DNA of 64,000 bases, from the sequence record NC_004928.1; one strand, written 5' to 3'. Below, piece after piece: positions 2,520 to 61,583 of the stretch (position 1 is its first letter; each line of letters opens with the position of its first letter). Source of the DNA: Escherichia phage RB69. Made by a program: the position numbers and the translations under genes. Below the pieces are notes generated by a model. It worked only from the letters and a program-made list of their open reading frames with translations, did no database searches and was not told the origin of the DNA.

Positions 2520-3620
2520 TTACGCTGTGAAGATTTTATCCCACATCGCAACAACCGCATCTCGGTTATACTTCTTCCATACTGCTTCAGCACGTTTAAC
2601 TCGAGCTTCGTATGTGTCAGTGAATTCTAATACAGCTTTTATGTAAAGCGCAACTACTTCTTTTTTAGGAGTAGAGGAATCAATTTCTACACGCACAGTA
2701 TCTGGGTCGTATTCAAATGTCGCATGAGGATAATCCTTAAAAACTAACTGGATTACAGGGACACCTTTAGAGATGGCTTCAATAGAACTATTCTCTACCG
2801 TACCTGTGTCAGGACACGTATTAATAAGTGCTTTAGCTGTTTTAAGACGTTCCATAATTTCACTATGTGGAGCATCAATAATAACAGGATATTTAGCTGG
2901 TGGTGCCCATTTACTAGGACAGTATCCTGCACCATTTTCGCCTAGTGCTTTAATCGCTTCAAGAGCAACATCAGTACGACGCATTTTAGTGTCATAGCGT
3001 TGTGCACTAATAATCAGATCAGTCGCCGGAAGAACTTCAGGTTTCTCATTCAAACAAATAACCGGATAATCTTCGGCTTCAAACAACGGATTTGCTCGCC
3101 AATAATCATAATCGATTTTGTCAGTCAGACCTGAAGTCATATAACAATATTTGCGTTCAAATTCACGGAAGGCTTTAGTAGGAGCATAACTCTTACCACC
3201 ATTCTTATGAATTTGAATAGTCTGGTCCCAAATTTGAACAATGCCACGAGATACCGGTTCAAATGGTGTTGCCATAAAATTCTTATGAACTTTAGAGAGA
3301 CCTGCGTCTTTAATTGCCTGAACGGTTAGTTTAGTCGGTTCCATAGTAACAACAAAATCGTATTCATGGATGCCGGCTAGTTCAACAATCTTACGAGCCA
3401 TAGTATAACTCATACCTAGACTGAATTTAGTCAGATGACCAACAGGATGATGATTAACCTTCCAATCACCAAATGTGTCATTATCAAAGCCAATATAATC
3501 AATATCAGCACCGATGGACACAAGATATTTCAACACATTTAAATGTACTGCTTCAAGACCACCTTGTACACGGTCAGGGTTAAATGGGACTGCGCGAGAT
3601 GGGATAAACATAACTTTCAT
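2520..3620 (-). CDS. candidate sugar transferase for DNA modification (position of T4 mobA)
   Basis: 366-aa ORF between rIIA.1 and gene 39; no endonuclease motifs; transferase-sized; function inferred from context. Confidence 0.4.
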   Translation of the reverse strand: MKVMFIPSRAVPFNPDRVQGGLEAVHLNVLKYLVSIGADIDYIGFDNDTFGDWKVNHHPVGHLTKFSLGMSYTMARKIVELAGIHEYDFVVTMEPTKLTVQAIKDAGLSKVHKNFMATPFEPVSRGIVQIWDQTIQIHKNGGKSYAPTKAFREFERKYCYMTSGLTDKIDYDYWRANPLFEAEDYPVICLNEKPEVLPATDLIISAQRYDTKMRRTDVALEAIKALGENGAGYCPSKWAPPAKYPVIIDAPHSEIMERLKTAKALINTCPDTGTVENSSIEAISKGVPVIQLVFKDYPHATFEYDPDTVRVEIDSSTPKKEVVALYIKAVLEFTDTYEARVKRAEAVWKKYNRDAVVAMWDKIFTA

Positions 3621-3632
3621 AATTAAGCCTTA

Positions 3633-3664
3633 TTAAAATTAAAATGAAGCTCCCGAAGGAGCTT
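3633..3664 (-). terminator. Intrinsic terminator, UUCG-tetraloop hairpin followed by U-rich tract
   Basis: plus-strand aagctcc-cgaa-ggagctt; on the minus-strand RNA the loop is UUCG and is followed by a U-rich run; overlaps the gene 39 stop. Confidence 0.5.
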
Positions 3665-5483
3665 AGGACATCCATTCTTTACGAAGTTCTGAATCATCAC
3701 CCATCAACATTTCAAAGAGTTCTTTCCAATTTTCAGGAAGTTTAACTACGTCGTACACAGGGTTCTGAATCATTTTACGATATTCTGACTTTTCAAGGGA
3801 GCCTAATCCCTTGATGTATCGAATACTATGCTTAGGCAGTGTATCTTTAGCTTCTTCATACTCAGCTACAGTATAAAACCATTTTTGAGTTTTGCCAATT
3901 TGTGCAATAATTACAGGCGTTTTAACAAAGCGAATACGTCCTTGTTCAAACAATTCAGGCCAATTACTAAAGAAAGCAAGCAAAGCCGGATAAATACTTC
4001 CAAGGCCGTCATGATCGGCATCGGTCATAATTGCAATATTACGATAGTTCGTATTCTCTGCCTTTTCACCAAGAATAAGACCTGTGATAGCACAGATATC
4101 AAAGAGCTCTTTGTTCTTCATCATATCAGCATATGACATACCCCAGCTATTCATCACCTTACCACGTAATGGGAATCCGCCGTGTAGTTCACGGTCACGA
4201 ACATCAATGAGATATCCAATTGCCGAATCACCTTCTGTTAAGAACAATGTCGTATCTGCATCTTTACCGCATTGGTTAGCTTTAATATGCTTATGAACCT
4301 TAGCTTTAGTTGCCTTTTTAGCTGCTTTAGTTTCTGCAGCCTTTTCTGCTGCCAATTTACGAGCTAATGCTGCTTCAACAATAGGCATAATCAAGGCTTC
4401 GTTTTTAAGAAGTGCCTGAGCAATTTTCTTAGCATCTAATTGGATATGATTACGAATATCACCATACGTTGACGTTAAACGTTCTTTAGTCTGAGAATCA
4501 AAACGCATGTTGCTCATATCTCTAATAAACATCAACATTGTGAGACATTCTTTAACACGAGCTTTAGTGACTTCAATACCCTTATATTTCTTTTTAATAC
4601 CAGGCAAAAGATGTTCGCAGATATCATCCATTACACATTCAACATGATGACCACCATTTTTAGTATGGATGTTATTCACATAAGTTAAATGACGGAAGCC
4701 ATCTGGTGATGTTGTGAATGCTATAGAGACTTTATCATTTTCTTGAATGATGTTATCTTCGCCAAATTGTTTAGCAAATCGTTTAAAATTACCATCAACC
4801 TTTTTACCATTAAATGTGAACTTGATATCAGGATAAACGACTGCCAATGTTTGAAGTCGGTCTAAAGTAATATCTAAATAAATTTGAGATAAATTATGCT
4901 CTTCAAATGAAGTGAAATCAGGAGTGAAGATTACTTTAGTTCCTTTACCTTTAGATTTCTTAGAAGACCATGATTTGTTTTCCATTCCGTTTGAACAGTT
5001 AACAGTGATTTCATTTTCGCCATCTGACGTGATGCCTGTAAACAACGTAGAGAAGATATTAGTTAAACTACTCCCGACGCCGTTCATACCACCGGTCTTG
5101 CGTTCAGAGTCATCGCCAAAGTTACCACCAGCCTTTGGAATAGTCCAGGCTGCTACAGGCCCAGGAATTTGTTCACCCGTTTGGTCGGTAACTAAACCTT
5201 GAGGAATACCACGTCCGTTATCTTCCACCGAAACTTGATTATTTTTAATTTGCACATCAATTTTATTTGCAAACTTAAATGATGTACGAATAGCTTCATC
5301 AACCGAGTTGTCAATAATCTCATCGATTAATTTAACCAGACCAAGGAACATTTCAACTGGTGAATAATTACCAACCAAAAACGGCTCGTGGGCTTCTTTA
5401 GCAGAAAGAACCAATATACATACCATACGGTTTCTTAATAATGGTTCTACATCTGACAATACCCTAATTTCATTTTTAATCAT
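3663..5483 (-). CDS. 39: DNA topoisomerase II large (ATPase) subunit, genes 39 and 60 fused
   Basis: 606-aa ORF, GyrB-like ATPase; length equals T4 gp39 plus gp60, so no split gene 60. Confidence 0.85.
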   Translation of the reverse strand: MIKNEIRVLSDVEPLLRNRMVCILVLSAKEAHEPFLVGNYSPVEMFLGLVKLIDEIIDNSVDEAIRTSFKFANKIDVQIKNNQVSVEDNGRGIPQGLVTDQTGEQIPGPVAAWTIPKAGGNFGDDSERKTGGMNGVGSSLTNIFSTLFTGITSDGENEITVNCSNGMENKSWSSKKSKGKGTKVIFTPDFTSFEEHNLSQIYLDITLDRLQTLAVVYPDIKFTFNGKKVDGNFKRFAKQFGEDNIIQENDKVSIAFTTSPDGFRHLTYVNNIHTKNGGHHVECVMDDICEHLLPGIKKKYKGIEVTKARVKECLTMLMFIRDMSNMRFDSQTKERLTSTYGDIRNHIQLDAKKIAQALLKNEALIMPIVEAALARKLAAEKAAETKAAKKATKAKVHKHIKANQCGKDADTTLFLTEGDSAIGYLIDVRDRELHGGFPLRGKVMNSWGMSYADMMKNKELFDICAITGLILGEKAENTNYRNIAIMTDADHDGLGSIYPALLAFFSNWPELFEQGRIRFVKTPVIIAQIGKTQKWFYTVAEYEEAKDTLPKHSIRYIKGLGSLEKSEYRKMIQNPVYDVVKLPENWKELFEMLMGDDSELRKEWMS

Positions 5484-5531: not shown

Positions 5532-5548
5532 AAAGGGCCGAAGCCCTT
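5527..5548 (-). terminator. Intrinsic terminator with UUCG tetraloop
   Basis: agggc-cgaa-gccct hairpin followed by UUUUUGCUUU on the minus-strand RNA. Confidence 0.55.
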
Positions 5549-5969
5549 ATTTAAATTTAATTTTCTGAAGTGCATCAATTGCAGCCAAACGCCCTTGTTC
5601 ACTTTTAACTGTAATGACCACATCGCCTGATACGATCACCGAACCATCAACAAATTCTATAGAGCCTTTTTTGAAATCGACAGCTGTATCTGGTTCCGGA
5701 ACTTCTTCAAAGAATTTAAATTCTGCACCATAAAGCAGAATATCACCTTGCATACTAATGATTGTACGTCCAGGTCCATCGGTTTCAGCGGCAATCATTG
5801 AAACACCGTAACCAATCATCTCTTCTACAATAAAATCTCTTGATAATAAAACTGTATGCAGAGTAGTGTTAAGACGTTTACCAGTTGTATTAAGAATTCT
5901 CAAGAAATTATCTTCTTGACCTTTGATAATACGATATTTCTTACCAACTTCAAAACCTTTAAAAGCCAT
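5547..5969 (-). CDS. hypothetical protein (size and position compatible with T4 goF)
   Basis: 140-aa ORF upstream of gene 39. Confidence 0.45.
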   Translation of the reverse strand: MAFKGFEVGKKYRIIKGQEDNFLRILNTTGKRLNTTLHTVLLSRDFIVEEMIGYGVSMIAAETDGPGRTIISMQGDILLYGAEFKFFEEVPEPDTAVDFKKGSIEFVDGSVIVSGDVVITVKSEQGRLAAIDALQKIKFK

Positions 5970-6848: not shown

Positions 6849-7373
6849 TCATTTTAGCAAAATAAAATCAACTTGTTCTGCTAACGAACGTCTGAACATT
6901 AATTGACAACTTCCGAGTATGAAATCAAGTGCTTCATAGACCGCGATGTAGTATCCTTTAGCTTTGAAGAGTTCAACATCCACCTGGTCATCAAACCATG
7001 CATAAACCGCGTCAACACTTTCAAATCCAAAATAGAACTCTTGAGCCCAATCTTCGTTCAATTCAAATGTGTGCTCAATTCTATAGTATCTTAAGATATT
7101 TTGTTCAAGGAGTTTGTCTTCATTTACTGTAGGACGATTAGGGACATTATAGTTGTCGCCGTGATGGTAGAAGTTACCTGAGATTATTCCATGTTTATCA
7201 AGGAATTCCCATGTTTCTTCAGAGTTGTCAGTGCCAGACCAACCGTAAGGTGAGCGAGGTTCTTTATTCCAAGAGGTTTCCCAAATTCTGACGGCTTTAC
7301 CGTCTTCGATAGCAATTCCTGGTAATGATTCACGTTGAGTACAAAAACTACGTTCTACGCGGTAAACTAACAT
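6849..7373 (-). CDS. hypothetical protein
   Basis: 174-aa ORF. Confidence 0.5.
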   Translation of the reverse strand: MLVYRVERSFCTQRESLPGIAIEDGKAVRIWETSWNKEPRSPYGWSGTDNSEETWEFLDKHGIISGNFYHHGDNYNVPNRPTVNEDKLLEQNILRYYRIEHTFELNEDWAQEFYFGFESVDAVYAWFDDQVDVELFKAKGYYIAVYEALDFILGSCQLMFRRSLAEQVDFILLK

Positions 7374-7399
7374 ATTATTCTCCTCTGGTTGATATGGGT

Positions 7400-7428
7400 T
7401 ATAATATCAAAACCAGAGGAGAAGTAAA
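7400..7428 (-). promoter_or_regulatory. early promoter (GTTTAC, 17 nt, TATTAT); spacer complementary to the downstream ribosome-binding site
   Basis: cctctggtt (7381-7389) and aaccagagg (7411-7419) form an inverted repeat around the -10. Confidence 0.5.
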
Positions 7429-7433
7429 CAACT

Positions 7434-7853
7434 TTATGCGAAAGCAGCTGGGCTATATTTTTTAATTTGGAATTCAGGAACTACCATGAACTGTCCAGCG
7501 AAAACGATGTTATAAAGCTTAACACCATCTTCTACCCAACGGTCGCTAATAAAACCAGCAATTTGCTTAGTTTTCCATGGCGTTCCATCAGTTGCCGCAG
7601 CAATAGTGAATTCATGGTCTTTTTCAACAGAAACTGATCTGCATAGTCCCCATTTGAACGCTTTTTCTTCTGGTTCAATGAATTGGCTTTTAACGTAACC
7701 AATGTTACCATCGGCGTCACGAACTTTAACTTCATTACGTCCAAAAACCGGATCGCTCACAGAAAGAACTTCAACCAACTTCCCGGCAACTTTAGAGCGA
7801 GAAGCATCTGATACGTGTACATAATCACCAATAGAGAGATTTGCAATATTCAT
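7434..7853 (-). CDS. hypothetical protein, tandem paralogue A
   Basis: 139 aa; shares RSK.AG.LVEV and FISD.WVEDG.KLYNIVF motifs with the next ORF. Confidence 0.55.
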   Translation of the reverse strand: MNIANLSIGDYVHVSDASRSKVAGKLVEVLSVSDPVFGRNEVKVRDADGNIGYVKSQFIEPEEKAFKWGLCRSVSVEKDHEFTIAAATDGTPWKTKQIAGFISDRWVEDGVKLYNIVFAGQFMVVPEFQIKKYSPAAFA

Positions 7854-7862
7854 AATAATTCC

Positions 7863-8318
7863 TTAAGCTTTACGAGGAGACACATAGCGAGTGATTTCAG
7901 ATTCTTTAACAACTCGGAAGTCACCTAAGAATACGATATTGTATAACTTTTCACCATCTTCAACCCATTGGTCGCTAATGAAGCCACACATGGTATCAGT
8001 TGTGCTTGGATAACCGTATTCGTCGATGTAATCAAATTCTTTATCGGTAATAAATTCAACACCTTTGCAAAGGGCCCATTTAAACTGTACATTAGGTTCA
8101 GTAGAAGCAAAATGAGCGCTCACAGGAGTTTCCAAAAATTTAGGACTTACGTAAGCGTACCGAGTTTCAGTTTTCCCAGAACTAGGAATGATTCGAACTT
8201 TAACTTCTTTAACACGACCAGTACCATTAGTACGAAGTCCTACCACTTCAACTAGACGACCTGCAGCTTTAGAACGAGATGCAGTTGATACACGCTTAAT
8301 TTCACCAATAGTAATCAT
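7863..8318 (-). CDS. hypothetical protein, tandem paralogue B
   Basis: 151 aa; paralogous to 7434..7853. Confidence 0.55.
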   Translation of the reverse strand: MITIGEIKRVSTASRSKAAGRLVEVVGLRTNGTGRVKEVKVRIIPSSGKTETRYAYVSPKFLETPVSAHFASTEPNVQFKWALCKGVEFITDKEFDYIDEYGYPSTTDTMCGFISDQWVEDGEKLYNIVFLGDFRVVKESEITRYVSPRKA

Positions 8319-8344
8319 AATTTTTCTCTCTTTGTTGTTAAGAT

Positions 8345-8376
8345 TTATACTCCATCCGTCCTTGGATGTACAACAT
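8345..8376 (-). promoter_or_regulatory. early promoter cassette, degenerate copy of the tccaaccatccttgg family
   Basis: minus strand TTGTACA, 17 nt, TATAAAT. Confidence 0.4.
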
Positions 8377-8473
8377 TAATTAAGGATATTAACCACAGCA
8401 CTACGTGGAACTACACTAAAATCACCTGCATGAACAACGTTCAGAAGTTCAACAACCGTCTTCAATCCACTGA

Positions 8474-8872
8474 TCAGTTACCCATCCACTCACTGGACCT
8501 GCGAAACGGACGTCGAATTGAAACAGCTTTACACAACAAATCAGTAGGCTCAATAGGCTTAATCAGAGTACCGTATATACAAGCGATATCCATATCAATA
8601 CAGATGTCTTTAACGGGTTCTACTTCTTCAATCAACAGTTCAAAGTCTGTGCTTGGAAGGGCGGTAGTAGAAATTGTACCATATGAATTTTTAATTTCTA
8701 AGAATAACCAAGGGCCTTCAGCTTGTTTGATGAAGTTAACAATAGTGAAACTATTACCTTGAGTGGCGCCTAAAATTTCACAAAACTTTTCATAAGCTCG
8801 CACTGAAGCACCGTACCAGTTAATTTGTTTTTCGTCTTTCAGGATGTAAGTAGCCGTAGTATTGATATTCAT
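8474..8872 (-). CDS. hypothetical protein
   Basis: 132-aa ORF. Confidence 0.5.
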   Translation of the reverse strand: MNINTTATYILKDEKQINWYGASVRAYEKFCEILGATQGNSFTIVNFIKQAEGPWLFLEIKNSYGTISTTALPSTDFELLIEEVEPVKDICIDMDIACIYGTLIKPIEPTDLLCKAVSIRRPFRRSSEWMGN

Positions 8873-8890
8873 AATGTTTTCCTGTTTGGT

Positions 8891-8938
8891 ATAAGATAGA
8901 AAGATTATACTCCAACCATCCTTGGTTGTAAACTGTTT
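8891..8938. repeat. about 48-bp direct repeat, copy 1 (second copy at 50964..51010)
   Basis: taagatagaaagattatactccaaccatccttggttgtaaactgtttt read by eye at both sites. Confidence 0.6.
8904..8933 (-). promoter_or_regulatory. early promoter (GTTTACA, 17 nt, TATAAT) with spacer hairpin
   Basis: minus strand GTTTACAACCAAGGATGGTTGGAGTATAAT; spacer holds caacca-agga-tggttg. Confidence 0.55.
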
Positions 8939-9615
8939 TATCGCTGTTTTACACTTAACGGGTCAGGATTCTCAGGGACATCTTCAAGGCCAAGCGCATA
9001 ACGCTGAGCATATTTTAACATCAAAATATCTTTAGCACAATCATGAATACTATCATGGGCAACGAATCCTTTTAGCGTACCCATCGGTAATGGACACATA
9101 CTTAATCCTCGTGTCAACGAGTAAGCTTCGATTGCTGTACGAATATCGCGTTGAGCCCAGAATTTAACCGGTTCTAATTTATCGGTATCAATCTCTGGTT
9201 CAAGAACACCTTCATCACGATAGAGGTCACGAATCAAATCGACCAAGATCGGGAAGTCAAAGCTCATACCACGGCACCACATCTGTGATTTCCATTGGTC
9301 AACTTTATTAGCTCGACAATAATCTAAAAAGATTTTAATGCCTTCAAGCGTAGTGACATCGTCTTCAGACGGGGCCAAGTTTTTACGTGCTTCAGCCGAT
9401 TGTTCTTTCCACCATTTCATAGTGGATTTAGCGAAAACTCGCTTCCCTTTCTGAGAAGCTAAATTAAATTTAATTCGCTTACCTCGTTGAACAAGTTCTT
9501 CAAATGATTCAACAACTTCAGGGTCGGAATTATATGCAATAACCGCAAGGTCAATAACAGCCGCTTTTGATGTATTGCCGAATGTTTCAAAATCTATAAT
9601 AACATCAGTGCTCAT
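8938..9615 (-). CDS. dexA: exonuclease A (DnaQ-like 3-prime to 5-prime exonuclease)
   Basis: 225 aa; N-terminal IIDFETFG exonuclease motif; T4 dexA size and position. Confidence 0.8.
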   Translation of the reverse strand: MSTDVIIDFETFGNTSKAAVIDLAVIAYNSDPEVVESFEELVQRGKRIKFNLASQKGKRVFAKSTMKWWKEQSAEARKNLAPSEDDVTTLEGIKIFLDYCRANKVDQWKSQMWCRGMSFDFPILVDLIRDLYRDEGVLEPEIDTDKLEPVKFWAQRDIRTAIEAYSLTRGLSMCPLPMGTLKGFVAHDSIHDCAKDILMLKYAQRYALGLEDVPENPDPLSVKQR

Positions 9616-50003: not shown

Positions 50004-50947
50004 TATAACACCTCAATGGCATTTCGTAAACCATCCGCTTTCGCATTCAGAGCTTTTAACGATTTAGTTTGTTCTGCAATCTGGGCTTCGACTTCTTTCA
50101 GACGAGATTTGAGATATTCGCGTTCTTCTCTTAAGTTATCAACCTTTTCTGCTTTAGGTTCTTTAATAGGCTTAAACACATTAGGGTTCTTCAGTTTAAT
50201 TTTAATTCGAGAACTGAATAACATTGAACCGTTATCTTCGGTTTCACTGTGCATTTCTACCACGTCCATGATTCTTAACATCATGCGAAGTTTATAAGAC
50301 AGCGAACGAACGGTTTTATTGTGCTTCTTAATTTCTTCAGCTTTCATGGTGCCGAGATTACGTGAGTAATAATAAGGAACCTGAATATCAATTGATAATG
50401 ATGCGGTACCATTACCGGTTGGTTTGAACACTGCAGTAACCCAATCTTTAACATGAACTTTATTTGTACGATCATCGCCGCCAGTGAATAATTTACAAGA
50501 ATGTTTAAAAAGCATATTCACTTGGTTATTGAATTCACAAGCAAATTTATCAGCAAATTTAGTTTCAGGAATGGTAGAGAACCAATCAGCTAAATGAGTC
50601 TTTTTAACATCATTAACAATAGTGAATTCAACCAAATCGGTTTTAGATGTCACAGATTTAATAAAGCTCGGCTTCATAAAGTTTTTGATGTTATCACGAG
50701 CTACAGTAGAAGATAATAAACGAGAACGTTTGAACCATTGAAGCAGTGTCCCTAATGAATGAGAATACGCATTCTGAGTATCTTTACAGATATGATTTTC
50801 TTGGCCCGTGTATGTACCAAAATCGCGAAGAATACCACTTACTACATCTCGGTGTGGAACATCAAATCCTAGTGCACCAACAGCGCGCTGGGCATGAACG
50901 TTAGCGATAAGACCGGCAAAGTATTCAATGTAATGTGAACGTGTCAT
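50003..50947 (-). CDS. hypothetical protein
   Basis: 314-aa ORF, coiled-coil C-terminus. Confidence 0.5.
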   Translation of the reverse strand: MTRSHYIEYFAGLIANVHAQRAVGALGFDVPHRDVVSGILRDFGTYTGQENHICKDTQNAYSHSLGTLLQWFKRSRLLSSTVARDNIKNFMKPSFIKSVTSKTDLVEFTIVNDVKKTHLADWFSTIPETKFADKFACEFNNQVNMLFKHSCKLFTGGDDRTNKVHVKDWVTAVFKPTGNGTASLSIDIQVPYYYSRNLGTMKAEEIKKHNKTVRSLSYKLRMMLRIMDVVEMHSETEDNGSMLFSSRIKIKLKNPNVFKPIKEPKAEKVDNLREEREYLKSRLKEVEAQIAEQTKSLKALNAKADGLRNAIEVL

Positions 50948-50963
50948 AATGTTTTCCTCTCGT

Positions 50964-51010
50964 TAAGATAGAAAGATTATACTCCAACCATCCTTGGTTG
51001 TAAACTGTTT
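50964..51010. repeat. about 48-bp direct repeat, copy 2 (first copy at 8891..8938)
   Basis: same sequence as copy 1 read by eye. Confidence 0.6.
50976..51005 (-). promoter_or_regulatory. early promoter (GTTTACA, 17 nt, TATAAT) within the repeat
   Basis: identical to the 8904..8933 cassette. Confidence 0.55.
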
Positions 51011-51069
51011 TTATGATTTTAATGCATTCATTGCGTTAAAAAGTTTAGAATACTGCAACTGGAGATTCG

Positions 51070-51997: not shown

Positions 51998-52028
51998 TAT
52001 TATACTCCAACCATCCTTGGTTGTACAT
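51998..52028 (-). promoter_or_regulatory. early promoter cassette, third copy of the tccaaccatccttgg family
   Basis: minus strand TGTACAACCAAGGATGGTTGGAGTATAAT. Confidence 0.5.
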
Positions 52029-58068: not shown

Positions 58069-58096
58069 AACGTTCTCCTCTAGTAAGTAAGGACTA

Positions 58097-58124
58097 CTAT
58101 AACACAACCTGAGGAGAAGTAAAC
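58097..58124 (-). promoter_or_regulatory. early promoter (GTTTAC, 16 nt, TTATAG)
   Basis: spacer ctcctc is complementary to the downstream GAGGAG. Confidence 0.45.
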
Positions 58125-61305: not shown

Positions 61306-61333
61306 TTTGATTTCTCCTCTAGTTGACAGGTCT

Positions 61334-61362
61334 ATAGTAACACAACTAGAGGAGAAGTAAAC
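61334..61362 (-). promoter_or_regulatory. early promoter (GTTTAC, 17 nt, TACTAT); spacer forms a 13-bp inverted repeat with the regB ribosome-binding site
   Basis: tctcctctagttg (61313-61325) and caactagaggaga (61343-61355). Confidence 0.55.
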
Positions 61363-61583
61363 TACTTTATTGATAAAATGAGAGTTAAGGCCCAAGATTC
61401 TTTAGATACTATATTGGCGAAGTGCCTCATCTCTTCGATTTGGCGACGACGCTGGTCAGCATAGTCTTCTTCGCCTTCTTCCTTACAATCTTCAAGGTCT
61501 TCTTCAAGATACTTTAAGTATTCACTACAAATTTTGTTGACCTTTTCCTGGAAGTCCAACAACCCAGTAATAGTAGAAGCCAT
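61362..61583 (-). CDS. hypothetical acidic protein
   Basis: 73-aa ORF. Confidence 0.4.
   Translation of the reverse strand: MASTITGLLDFQEKVNKICSEYLKYLEEDLEDCKEEGEEDYADQRRRQIEEMRHFANIVSKESWALTLILSIK

What the first reader, a model, noticed from the sequence alone, without database searches (positions are those of the whole stretch)
7434..8318. Tandem duplicated genes upstream of dexA
Two adjacent ORFs of 139 and 151 aa share N-terminal and C-terminal motifs but differ in the middle. They are separated by 9 nt. This looks like a tandem duplication that has since diverged.
Basis: seen in the sequence. Interest (0 to 1): 0.4.

Follow-up and report, generated by a model that had tools for sequence, protein, structure and literature searches.

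The report
Known tandem motB paralogs of RB69
The two adjacent genes are real, anciently diverged copies of the phage T4 early gene motB (a DNA-binding protein that acts on the host nucleoid), and this pair in phage RB69 was already described as a duplication in 2006.

Summary
ORFs 7863-8318 (151 aa) and 7434-7853 (139 aa), both on the minus strand and 9 nt apart, are 43% identical (BLASTP E 2e-31). Both pass the Pfam motB model PF17613.

The window is phage RB69. The genes are its annotated motB and RB69ORF010c ("similar to motB"). Nolan et al. 2006 already named this pair as a paralogous duplication, and Patterson-West et al. 2021 counted two motB copies in RB69.

What I add:
- **Age:** the split is old. 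dS between the copies is about 1.4, and the short copy branches outside all canonical MotBs, T4's included.
- **Distribution:** the pair is a conserved cassette in about 205 of about 775 T-even genomes, covering Mosigvirus and some Tequatrovirus. All eight pairs examined (RB69 plus seven relatives) have the 9-nt junction.
- **Selection:** both copies are under purifying selection (dN/dS 0.21 and 0.15).
- **Difference:** the short copy lacks the flexible linker and the basic N-terminal domain of canonical MotB.
- **Third member:** the family member motB.1 lies directly upstream and is frameshifted in RB69.
- **Recombination:** natural hybrid genes show recombination at the conserved FKW and DQWVEDG motifs.

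The pair lies downstream of dexA in the direction of transcription, not upstream. Verdict: already known, low interest.

The parts
7863..8318 (-). MotB-a, the RB69 motB gene (151 aa). This is the canonical MotB: a basic KOW/SH3-like N-terminal domain, a disordered linker (residues 66-75) and a beta-rich C-terminal domain carrying the DQWVEDGxKLYNIVF core.
7434..7853 (-). MotB-b, RB69ORF010c (139 aa). A diverged MotB paralog with the same two domains, but the N-terminal domain is short and not basic, and the linker is only about 5 residues.
7854..7862 (-). The 9-nt spacer between the two genes. The minus strand reads TAA-GGAATTATT-ATG, so a Shine-Dalgarno-like AAGGA overlaps the stop codon of MotB-a. 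There is no room for a separate promoter.
   Evidence: Sequence. The same 9-nt spacing is seen in SHSML-52-1, Mizar, RB51, F31, F2, APCEc01 and mar005P1.
8344..8374 (-). An element resembling a T-even early promoter, upstream of MotB-a: GTTGTACA, 17 nt, TATAAA. It is a degenerate copy of the element upstream of motB.1. Relatives have TATAAT here.
   Evidence: Sequence and alignment. The consensus scan did not score it in RB69 because the -10 hexamer ends in A. Its role as a promoter is inferred, not shown.
8376..8872 (-). motB.1 homologue, a third member of the MotB C-terminal-domain family. In RB69 it is broken by two +1 insertions. This leaves a 132-aa ORF (8474-8872) and out-of-frame remnants of the C-terminal domain, including the 29-aa ORF at 8376-8465.
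   Evidence: Alignment with SHSML-52-1 and Mizar, which carry an intact 164-aa gene. phrog_2333 E 8e-50. 32% identical to T4 MotB.1. The intact SHSML MotB.1 C-terminal domain against MotB-b gives E 1e-10. tblastn finds the remnants at 8394-8493. The 29-aa peptide of RB69 is described in PMC7827196.
8904..8932 (-). Early-promoter-like site between dexA and motB.1: GTTTACA, 17 nt, TATAAT.
   Evidence: 11 of 12 consensus matches. The 71-nt stretch 8869-8939 recurs at 50944-51011 with 93% identity.
6849..7373 (-). motB.2 homologue (174 aa), the next gene downstream of the pair. It is not homologous to MotB. In T4 this gene sits between dexA and motB.1 instead.
   Evidence: 33% identical to T4 MotB.2, E 7e-13. 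phrog_1106. T4 gene order.

Best explanation
The locus is the motB region of phage RB69 (genus Mosigvirus). It carries two co-oriented early genes that are probably co-transcribed and translationally coupled. Both encode members of the MotB family.

MotB-a (151 aa) is the counterpart of T4 MotB. Published work describes T4 MotB as an early protein that binds DNA without sequence specificity, co-purifies with H-NS/StpA, changes the H-NS footprint on DNA, and roughly doubles burst size.

MotB-b (139 aa, RB69ORF010c) is an old paralog that has been kept under purifying selection. It has the same two beta-barrel domains and the invariant C-terminal core (D-x-W-x-E-x-G-x-KLYN-x-VF). It lacks the flexible linker, the IIPxxG hairpin and the net positive charge of the canonical N-terminal domain.

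The most likely working model is as follows. Both proteins are made together early in infection and act on nucleoid-associated DNA or H-NS. MotB-a does the canonical basic-domain DNA binding. MotB-b is a specialised variant or partner that shares the conserved C-terminal interaction module.

Shown here: homology, family membership, age of the split, conservation, selection, and the predicted folds. Inferred: co-expression, DNA binding by these two RB69 proteins, and any division of labour between them. The confidence of 0.9 refers to the identity of the genes as old, maintained MotB paralogs. The division-of-labour part taken alone would rate about 0.2.
For: - **Homology:** BLASTP E 2e-31.
- **Family:** both exceed the Pfam PF17613 gathering score of 25 bits, at 131.7 and 83.4 bits. 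Both hit phrog_1671, 'MotB-like transcriptional regulator'.
- **Source genome:** MotB-a is 100% identical to the RB69 MotB protein on a 167,560-bp contig.
- **Synteny:** the surrounding gene order dda-dexA-...-cef-goF-39.2 matches T4.
- **Old split:** dS 1.36 and dN 0.52 between the copies. In NJ trees the b clade lies outside a + T4 + JS98/KIT01/PSD2001/RZ. b is no further from the CIP9 and MotB.1 outgroups than a is, so the deep position is not explained by a faster rate in b, at least in the C-terminal domain.
- **Conservation:** 206 records carry a b-type gene at 80% identity or more, none at 60-80%, and 570 have only hits below 60%. 201 records carry an a-type gene at 60% or more. Eight pairs have the 9-nt junction: RB69 itself and seven relatives.
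- **Purifying selection:** mean dN/dS is 0.21 for a and 0.15 for b.
- **Charge:** the N-terminal domain of every canonical MotB examined carries +2 to +9, and every b-type N-terminal domain carries -2 to +1.
- **Published function of T4 MotB:** PMC6070864 and PMC7827196.
Against: - No expression or biochemical data exist here for either RB69 protein.
- The element upstream of MotB-a has TATAAA rather than TATAAT, and the consensus scan did not call it.
- Which MotB domain binds DNA is unknown even for T4 (PMC7827196 section 3.1). The loss of charge in the MotB-b N-terminal domain therefore need not mean loss of DNA binding.
- The trees are distance-based, with a distant outgroup (about 30% identity) and only moderate support on the full alignment.
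- Intragenic recombination in this family (F31_a and the hybrids) blurs any single-tree history.
Confidence: 0.9

Rival explanations
1. A recent duplication specific to this phage: the two copies arose in RB69 or its immediate ancestors and are drifting apart.
For: The genes are adjacent, co-oriented and only 9 nt apart. T4 has only one motB.
Against: Synonymous divergence between the copies is saturated (dS 1.36), and nucleotide identity is only 42-70% along the gene. The same pair occurs in Tequatrovirus RB51 and F2 and in several Mosigvirus species. About 205 genomes carry b. b branches outside the clade that unites a with T4 MotB.
Confidence: 0.02
2. Xenologous acquisition: MotB-b was not duplicated in place. 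It arrived by recombination from another T-even lineage that carried a diverged motB, and landed next to the resident gene.
For: The region is mosaic. Gene order differs between T4 and RB69, with motB.2 on opposite sides of the motB genes. The a+b cassette is shared between two genera, although their single-copy relatives carry very different motB alleles. Domain-level hybrids exist. b is as distant from a as from any other MotB.
Against: No sampled phage carries a b-type gene as its only motB. All 206 b-type records fall in the bands that also hold an a-type gene, and a search of 1.84 billion representative proteins found just one b-type cluster (P0115). The identical 9-nt junction with a coupled ribosome-binding site is the simplest outcome of a tandem duplication.
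Confidence: 0.2
3. MotB-b is a decaying, redundant copy, in effect a pseudogene in the making.
For: It is shorter. It has lost the linker, a hairpin and the N-terminal positive charge. The neighbouring motB.1 is frameshifted in RB69. The whole region is dispensable in T4 (PMC7827196).
Against: The ORF is intact at exactly 139 aa in nearly all b-type clusters and in the seven other genomes with the pair that I examined. dN/dS is 0.15, and 0.01 against the closest relatives despite dS of 0.29. The AF2 model is highly confident (pLDDT 90). All family-invariant residues are retained.
Confidence: 0.03
4. The similarity is due to chance or low complexity, and there is no common ancestry.
For: None found.
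Against: BLASTP E 2e-31 with composition correction. Both proteins hit the same Pfam and PHROG models independently.
Confidence: 0

Closest known systems
Phage T4 MotB (NP_049626; Pfam PF17613 'Modifier of transcription')
   Same: The same Pfam family for both ORFs. The same genomic neighbourhood, between dexA and cef in the early region. The same architecture of a KOW/SH3-like N-terminal domain plus a beta-rich C-terminal domain. The same invariant core, ITDQWVEDGVKLYN. MotB-a also shares the basic N-terminal domain and a flexible linker.
   Different: Only 48% (a) and 40% (b) identical to T4 MotB. T4 has one copy and RB69 has two. MotB-b has no linker and a neutral to acidic N-terminal domain. 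The MotB-a C-terminal domain is acidic (-5) where that of T4 is +2 to +3. Neither RB69 protein has been tested for DNA binding or H-NS effects.
RB69 motB / RB69ORF010c as published (Nolan et al. 2006, Virol J 3:30; Patterson-West et al. 2021, Viruses 13:84, Table S6)
   Same: These are the identical genes. The 2006 paper lists RB69ORF010c with motB as a paralogous duplication of an adjacent conserved gene. The 2021 paper counts 2 MotB and 2 MotB.1-class entries in RB69, including the 29-aa peptide.
   Different: Nothing differs about the object itself. The published text does not discuss the age of the split, selection, linker or charge differences, or hybrid genes. The main text of the 2021 paper singles out RB69, whereas its Table S6 and my census show that the pair is widespread.
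T4 MotB.1 and its homologues (phrog_2333; LSm-like N-terminal domain plus a MotB-type C-terminal domain; Kim et al. 2025, PMC12152347)
   Same: It shares the C-terminal core motif with both MotB copies (SHSML MotB.1 against MotB-b, E 1e-10). It lies immediately upstream in the same transcriptional direction.
   Different: Its N-terminal domain is unrelated (LSm-like rather than KOW-like). In RB69 it is interrupted by two +1 insertions.
KOW and Tudor small beta-barrels (Spt5 KOW domains, NusG C-terminal domain, 53BP1 tandem Tudor)
   Different: Sequence identity is only 10-20%, with no evidence of shared function. This is a resemblance of fold, not family membership.

Membership tests
MotB family (Pfam PF17613 / phrog_1671) | Sequence match to the family profile above the curated threshold | tested here: met
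   MotB-a scores 131.7 bits and MotB-b 83.4 bits against a gathering score of 25. phrog_1671 gives E 7e-64 and 3e-52.
MotB family (Pfam PF17613 / phrog_1671) | Two-domain architecture: an N-terminal KOW/SH3-like barrel and a C-terminal beta domain (PMC7827196 section 3.1) | tested here: met
MotB family (Pfam PF17613 / phrog_1671) | Conserved C-terminal core motif (G-[FY]-I-[ST]-D-Q-W-V-E-D-G-x-K-L-Y-N-[IV]-V-F) | tested here: met
   Invariant D, W, E, G, K, L, Y, N, V and F columns are present in both copies in a 65-sequence alignment. MotB-b of RB69 has R in place of Q (DRWVEDG).
MotB family (Pfam PF17613 / phrog_1671) | Position in the early region between dexA and cef of a Tevenvirinae genome | tested here: met
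   Gene order in the window compared with T4, RB51, JS98, KIT01, PSD2001, RZ and CIP9.
MotB family (Pfam PF17613 / phrog_1671) | Non-specific DNA binding, co-purification with H-NS/StpA, toxicity in E. coli, and an increase in burst size (the properties of T4 MotB) | not testable with these tools
   Known only for T4 MotB (PMC6070864 and PMC7827196). No data exist for RB69 MotB or ORF010c.
Orthologue of T4 MotB (as opposed to paralog) | Groups with T4 MotB to the exclusion of the other copy | tested here: met
   Met for MotB-a: the a clade joins T4, Dhakavirus and Gaprivervirus MotB in the full-length, N-terminal and C-terminal NJ trees. Not met for MotB-b, which forms its own clade outside that group.

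The most novel reading that the evidence does not exclude
The a/b pair may be a natural partition of MotB function. MotB-a keeps the basic, linker-tethered KOW domain that binds DNA. MotB-b is rigid, linkerless and uncharged, and acts as an obligate partner or modulator through the shared invariant C-terminal core, for example as a heteromer that caps or redirects MotB/H-NS filaments.

The conserved FKW and DQWVEDG motifs would also serve as recombination joints, letting T-even phages shuffle N- and C-terminal modules between MotB, MotB-b and MotB.1. The cassette would then be a small modular toolkit against xenogeneic silencing, rather than a simple redundant duplicate.
Probability: 0.15. Interest if true: 0.4.

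Novelty: already known. Interest (0 to 1): 0.12.

Why it matters
As a discovery it matters little. The duplication has been in the RB69 GenBank annotation and in the literature since 2006, and the gene family (MotB) has been characterised in T4.

It has modest value for people who work on phage takeover of the host nucleoid. About a quarter of sequenced T-even phages carry a second, structurally distinct MotB that has never been studied. That copy is linkerless, lacks the basic N-terminal domain, and is under strong purifying selection. All functional work has been done on T4, which has only one copy. Comparing MotB-a, MotB-b and the natural hybrids could show which domain binds DNA and which contacts H-NS.

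Tried and rejected
- **Solved structures by sequence.** A PDB sequence search with both proteins found nothing for MotB-a and only marginal SH3-domain hits (E about 0.04) for MotB-b. No MotB structure is available by sequence.
- **RB69 RefSeq record.** I tried to fetch NC_004928 from the phage collection to read its annotation, but the record is absent. Identity was established through P0001 instead.
- **Loci in scripts.** Most fetched loci did not appear in the Python sandbox. I worked around this by passing coding sequences through DNA alignment.
- **The motB.1 frameshift.** An exact-match search of IMG/VR for the RB69-specific variant (GACGGTTGTTG) found nothing. Whether the two +1 insertions are real or sequencing errors stays open.
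- **The 'two places per record' in the first megablast.** I considered that this pointed to another paralog elsewhere. It is only short repeated promoter-like DNA.
- **Recent gene conversion.** I considered that it explained the conserved C-terminal core. I rejected this because the core differs at most synonymous sites (dS 2.05 in that segment).
- **Faster evolution of b.** I considered that this explained its deep position in the tree. I rejected this because b is no further from the outgroups than a.
- **Relatives outside T4-like phages.** A profile search of 1.84 billion representative proteins found only 34 clusters. The named structural matches in the viral library are almost all from T4-like phages.

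Full report
**1. Observation**

The window has two minus-strand ORFs at 7863-8318 (151 aa) and 7434-7853 (139 aa), separated by the 9 nt at 7854-7862. Their products align over almost the full length. There are 63/145 identities (43%) at 97 bits and E 2e-31, so the similarity is not chance.

The N-terminal domains are 46% identical and the C-terminal domains 49%. The longer protein has a 6-residue insertion (IIPSSG) in a hairpin and a linker about 10 residues longer. The first half of the C-terminal domain is the most diverged segment (dN 0.70, against 0.40 in the C-terminal core).

One detail needs correcting. dexA (8938-9615) and both ORFs are on the minus strand. The pair therefore lies downstream of dexA in the direction of transcription, and another gene sits between them.

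**2. Identity of the genes and of the window**

Both proteins exceed the Pfam gathering score for PF17613 (motB, 'Modifier of transcription'), at 131.7 and 83.4 bits against a threshold of 25. Both hit phrog_1671, 'MotB-like transcriptional regulator'.

[quoted passage not shown] The region is 96-97% identical at the DNA level to Mosigvirus phages such as SHSML-52-1 and Mizar. The window is therefore RB69. That record is missing from the searchable phage collection.

The minus-strand gene order is dda, dexA, motB.1-like, MotB-a, MotB-b, motB.2-like, cef, goF, 39.2. T4 has dda, dexA.2, dexA.1, dexA, motB.2, motB.1, motB, cef. T4 thus has a single motB, and motB.2 sits on the other side.

**3. 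Prior knowledge**

Nolan et al. [quoted passage not shown]

Patterson-West et al. [quoted passage not shown] Their Table S4 lists NP_861700.1, 'RB69ORF010c similar to motB'. Their Table S6 lists two MotB entries for RB69, RB51, APCEc01, JS09 and others.

RefSeq and GenBank records of relatives annotate both genes as MotB-like, and the RB51 record notes 'similar to motB'. The finding is therefore already known.

**4. What MotB does (from the literature, for T4 only)**

[quoted passage not shown] It binds unmodified and glucosyl-hmC DNA without detectable sequence specificity, co-purifies with H-NS and StpA, and doubles burst size (PMC6070864). It also alters the H-NS DNase I footprint and de-represses H-NS-controlled host genes when over-expressed.

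HHpred predicts an N-terminal KOW-like domain and a C-terminal OB-fold-like domain. Which of the two binds DNA is not known (PMC7827196).

**5. Age and distribution of the pair**

tblastn against 50,697 phage records finds MotB homologues in about 770 T-even genomes.

| Query | Identity band | Records |
|---|---|---|
| MotB-b type | 80% or more | 206 |
| MotB-b type | 60-80% | 0 |
| MotB-b type | below 60% | 570 |
| MotB-a type | 60% or more | 201 |

The b gene is therefore a discrete, well-conserved clade in roughly a quarter of T-even phages, and the counts suggest it travels with an a-type gene.

The pair occurs in Mosigvirus (SHSML-52-1, Mizar, F31, APCEc01, mar005P1) and also in Tequatrovirus (RB51, F2). 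The 9-nt spacer is the same in every case. JS98 and KIT01 (Dhakavirus), PSD2001 and RZ (Gaprivervirus), CIP9 (Kanagawavirus) and T4 have one motB.

Several results point to an old split:
- Between a and b, dS is 1.36 (saturated) and dN is 0.52. Nucleotide identity runs at 42-70% along the gene. The conserved C-terminal core differs at most synonymous sites (dS 2.05), so there has been no recent gene conversion.
- In neighbour-joining trees rooted on CIP9, the b clade lies outside a clade that joins MotB-a with T4, Dhakavirus and Gaprivervirus MotB. This holds for the full alignment and for each domain separately, with the strongest support in the C-terminal domain.
- In the C-terminal domain, b is not further from the CIP9 or MotB.1 outgroups than a is. 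A faster rate in b does not explain its deep position.

The split between a and b is thus at least as old as the split between RB69 MotB and T4 MotB. Either single-copy lineages lost b, or b entered by recombination. I cannot separate the two. Against entry by recombination, no phage with b as its only motB was found.

**6. Both copies are maintained**

Among orthologues, mean dN/dS is 0.21 for a and 0.15 for b. For b against its closest relatives, dN is 0.003 and dS 0.29. Nearly all b-type clusters are exactly 139 aa. This rules out a decaying copy.

**7. How the copies differ**

| Property | MotB-a | MotB-b |
|---|---|---|
| AF2 mean pLDDT | 85 | 90 |
| AF2 pTM | 0.57 | 0.80 |
| Disordered segment | residues 66-75, pLDDT below 50 | none |

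Across 65 family members:

| Property | Canonical MotB | b type |
|---|---|---|
| Net charge of N-terminal domain | +2 to +9 | -2 to +1 |
| Linker length | a type 15-29, T4 type 23, Gaprivervirus 26, Dhakavirus 47 residues (about -10 charge) | 5 residues |

The C-terminal domain of the a type is acidic (-2 to -5), and that of the T4 type is +1 to +3.

MotB-b is therefore a compact variant without a linker and without a basic N-terminal domain. I infer functional specialisation from this, but it is not demonstrated.

**8. Expression signals (inferred)**

The a/b junction reads TAA-GGAATTATT-ATG, with a Shine-Dalgarno-like AAGGA overlapping the stop codon of a. It leaves no room for a promoter, so b is probably co-transcribed with a and translationally coupled to it.

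Upstream of a lies GTTGTACA, 17 nt, TATAAA (8374-8344). This is a degenerate copy of the early-promoter-like element upstream of motB.1 (GTTTACA, 17 nt, TATAAT, 8932-8904, 11 of 12 consensus matches). Relatives have TATAAT at the first site.

**9. The array has a third member**

The gene immediately upstream (8474-8872, 132 aa) is the motB.1 homologue (phrog_2333; 32% identical to T4 MotB.1). In SHSML-52-1 and Mizar it is 164 aa and ends in a MotB-type C-terminal core, GWVTDQWIEDGVELLNVVHAGDFSVVP. That core matches MotB-b at E 1e-10.

In RB69, two single-base insertions in short homopolymer runs split this domain across three reading frames. The last piece is the 29-aa ORF at 8376-8465, the peptide noted in the 2021 paper. 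No other sequence in IMG/VR carries this variant. It is either private to RB69 or a sequencing error.

**10. Recombination between family members**

- F31's a gene has a T4-type N-terminal domain joined to an a-type C-terminal domain.
- The assembled contig L015 has a single hybrid gene between motB.1 and cef, where the pair would otherwise be. It joins an a-type N-terminal domain and linker to a b-type C-terminal domain at FKW.
- Five contigs carry a T4-type N-terminal domain fused to a b-type C-terminal domain. The flanks look T4-like on one side and RB51-like on the other.
- P0031 switches from a to b inside DQWVEDG.

Tandem paralogs and alleles thus recombine at the conserved motifs. Some of the assembled contigs could be chimeric assemblies. 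F31 and its relatives are isolate genomes.

**11. Family size**

A profile search of 1.84 billion representative proteins returns only 34 clusters. The structural matches in the viral library that carry a name are almost all from T4-like phages. This is a narrow, phage-specific family.

**12. Verdict**

The object is the published motB/ORF010c pair of RB69. New here are the age of the split, the purifying selection on both copies, the conserved differences in linker and charge, the extent of the cassette's distribution, and the hybrid genes. These are incremental. Interest is low, and the novelty class is 'already known'.

Noticed in passing
window 8376-8872 (-): The RB69 motB.1 homologue is interrupted by two +1 insertions in short homopolymer runs (TT to TTT, and GGT to GGTT) relative to the intact 164-aa gene of SHSML-52-1 and Mizar. 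Its MotB-type C-terminal domain is split over three reading frames. The last fragment is the annotated 29-aa ORF at 8376-8465. Whether the mutations are real or sequencing errors is not resolved.
   Followed up: partly
window 7374-7433 (-); similar copies at 61312-61370 and 58073-58124: The intergenic region upstream of the motB.2-like gene holds a promoter-like GTTTAC, 16 nt, TATTAT. It is embedded in an 11-bp inverted repeat (CTCCTCTGGTT ... AACCAGAGGAG), and the 3' arm of that repeat contains the ribosome-binding site GAGGAG. Similar units recur at least twice elsewhere in the window (83% and 77% identity). This looks like a repeated early promoter and 5'-UTR hairpin module.
   Followed up: partly
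window 8869-8939 (-) and 50944-51011, 51999-52025: The 71-nt dexA/motB.1 intergenic stretch contains the early-promoter-like GTTTACAACCAAGGATGGTTGGAGTATAAT and the following leader. It is repeated at 93% identity about 42 kb away. This explains the 'two places per record' seen in the megablast of this region.
   Followed up: yes
window 6849-7373 (-) compared with L001 (T4) 3162-3662: The motB.2 homologue lies downstream of the motB genes in RB69 and other Mosigvirus (between MotB-b and cef). In T4, RB51, JS98 and KIT01 it lies upstream (between dexA and motB.1). F2 lacks it altogether. The gene has moved within this small region.
   Followed up: partly
L010 (Enterobacter phage CIP9) 3001-3495: The gene annotated motB in this Kanagawavirus combines a KOW-like N-terminal domain with a C-terminal domain that resembles MotB.1 more than MotB (PTDLL...GGFVSDQWIEEGVELLNIVHEGTFSVVPRS). 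This is further evidence that N- and C-terminal modules of the MotB and MotB.1 families have been exchanged.
   Followed up: partly
L002 (Mizar) 3563-4060; P0003, P0005, P0010 and other 165-175 aa entries: Many database entries for the a-type MotB start 14-21 codons too early (MLYIQGWMEYNEFNLNKERK...). The extension reads through the promoter-like element upstream of the gene, so it is probably an annotation artefact. In RB69 that frame is closed by a stop codon.
   Followed up: partly
window 5547-5969 (-): A 140-aa ORF lies between gene 39 and 39.2. It has no counterpart in T4 at this position. RB51 annotates a 'similar to RB69ORF005c' gene at the corresponding place. I did not examine it.
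   Followed up: no
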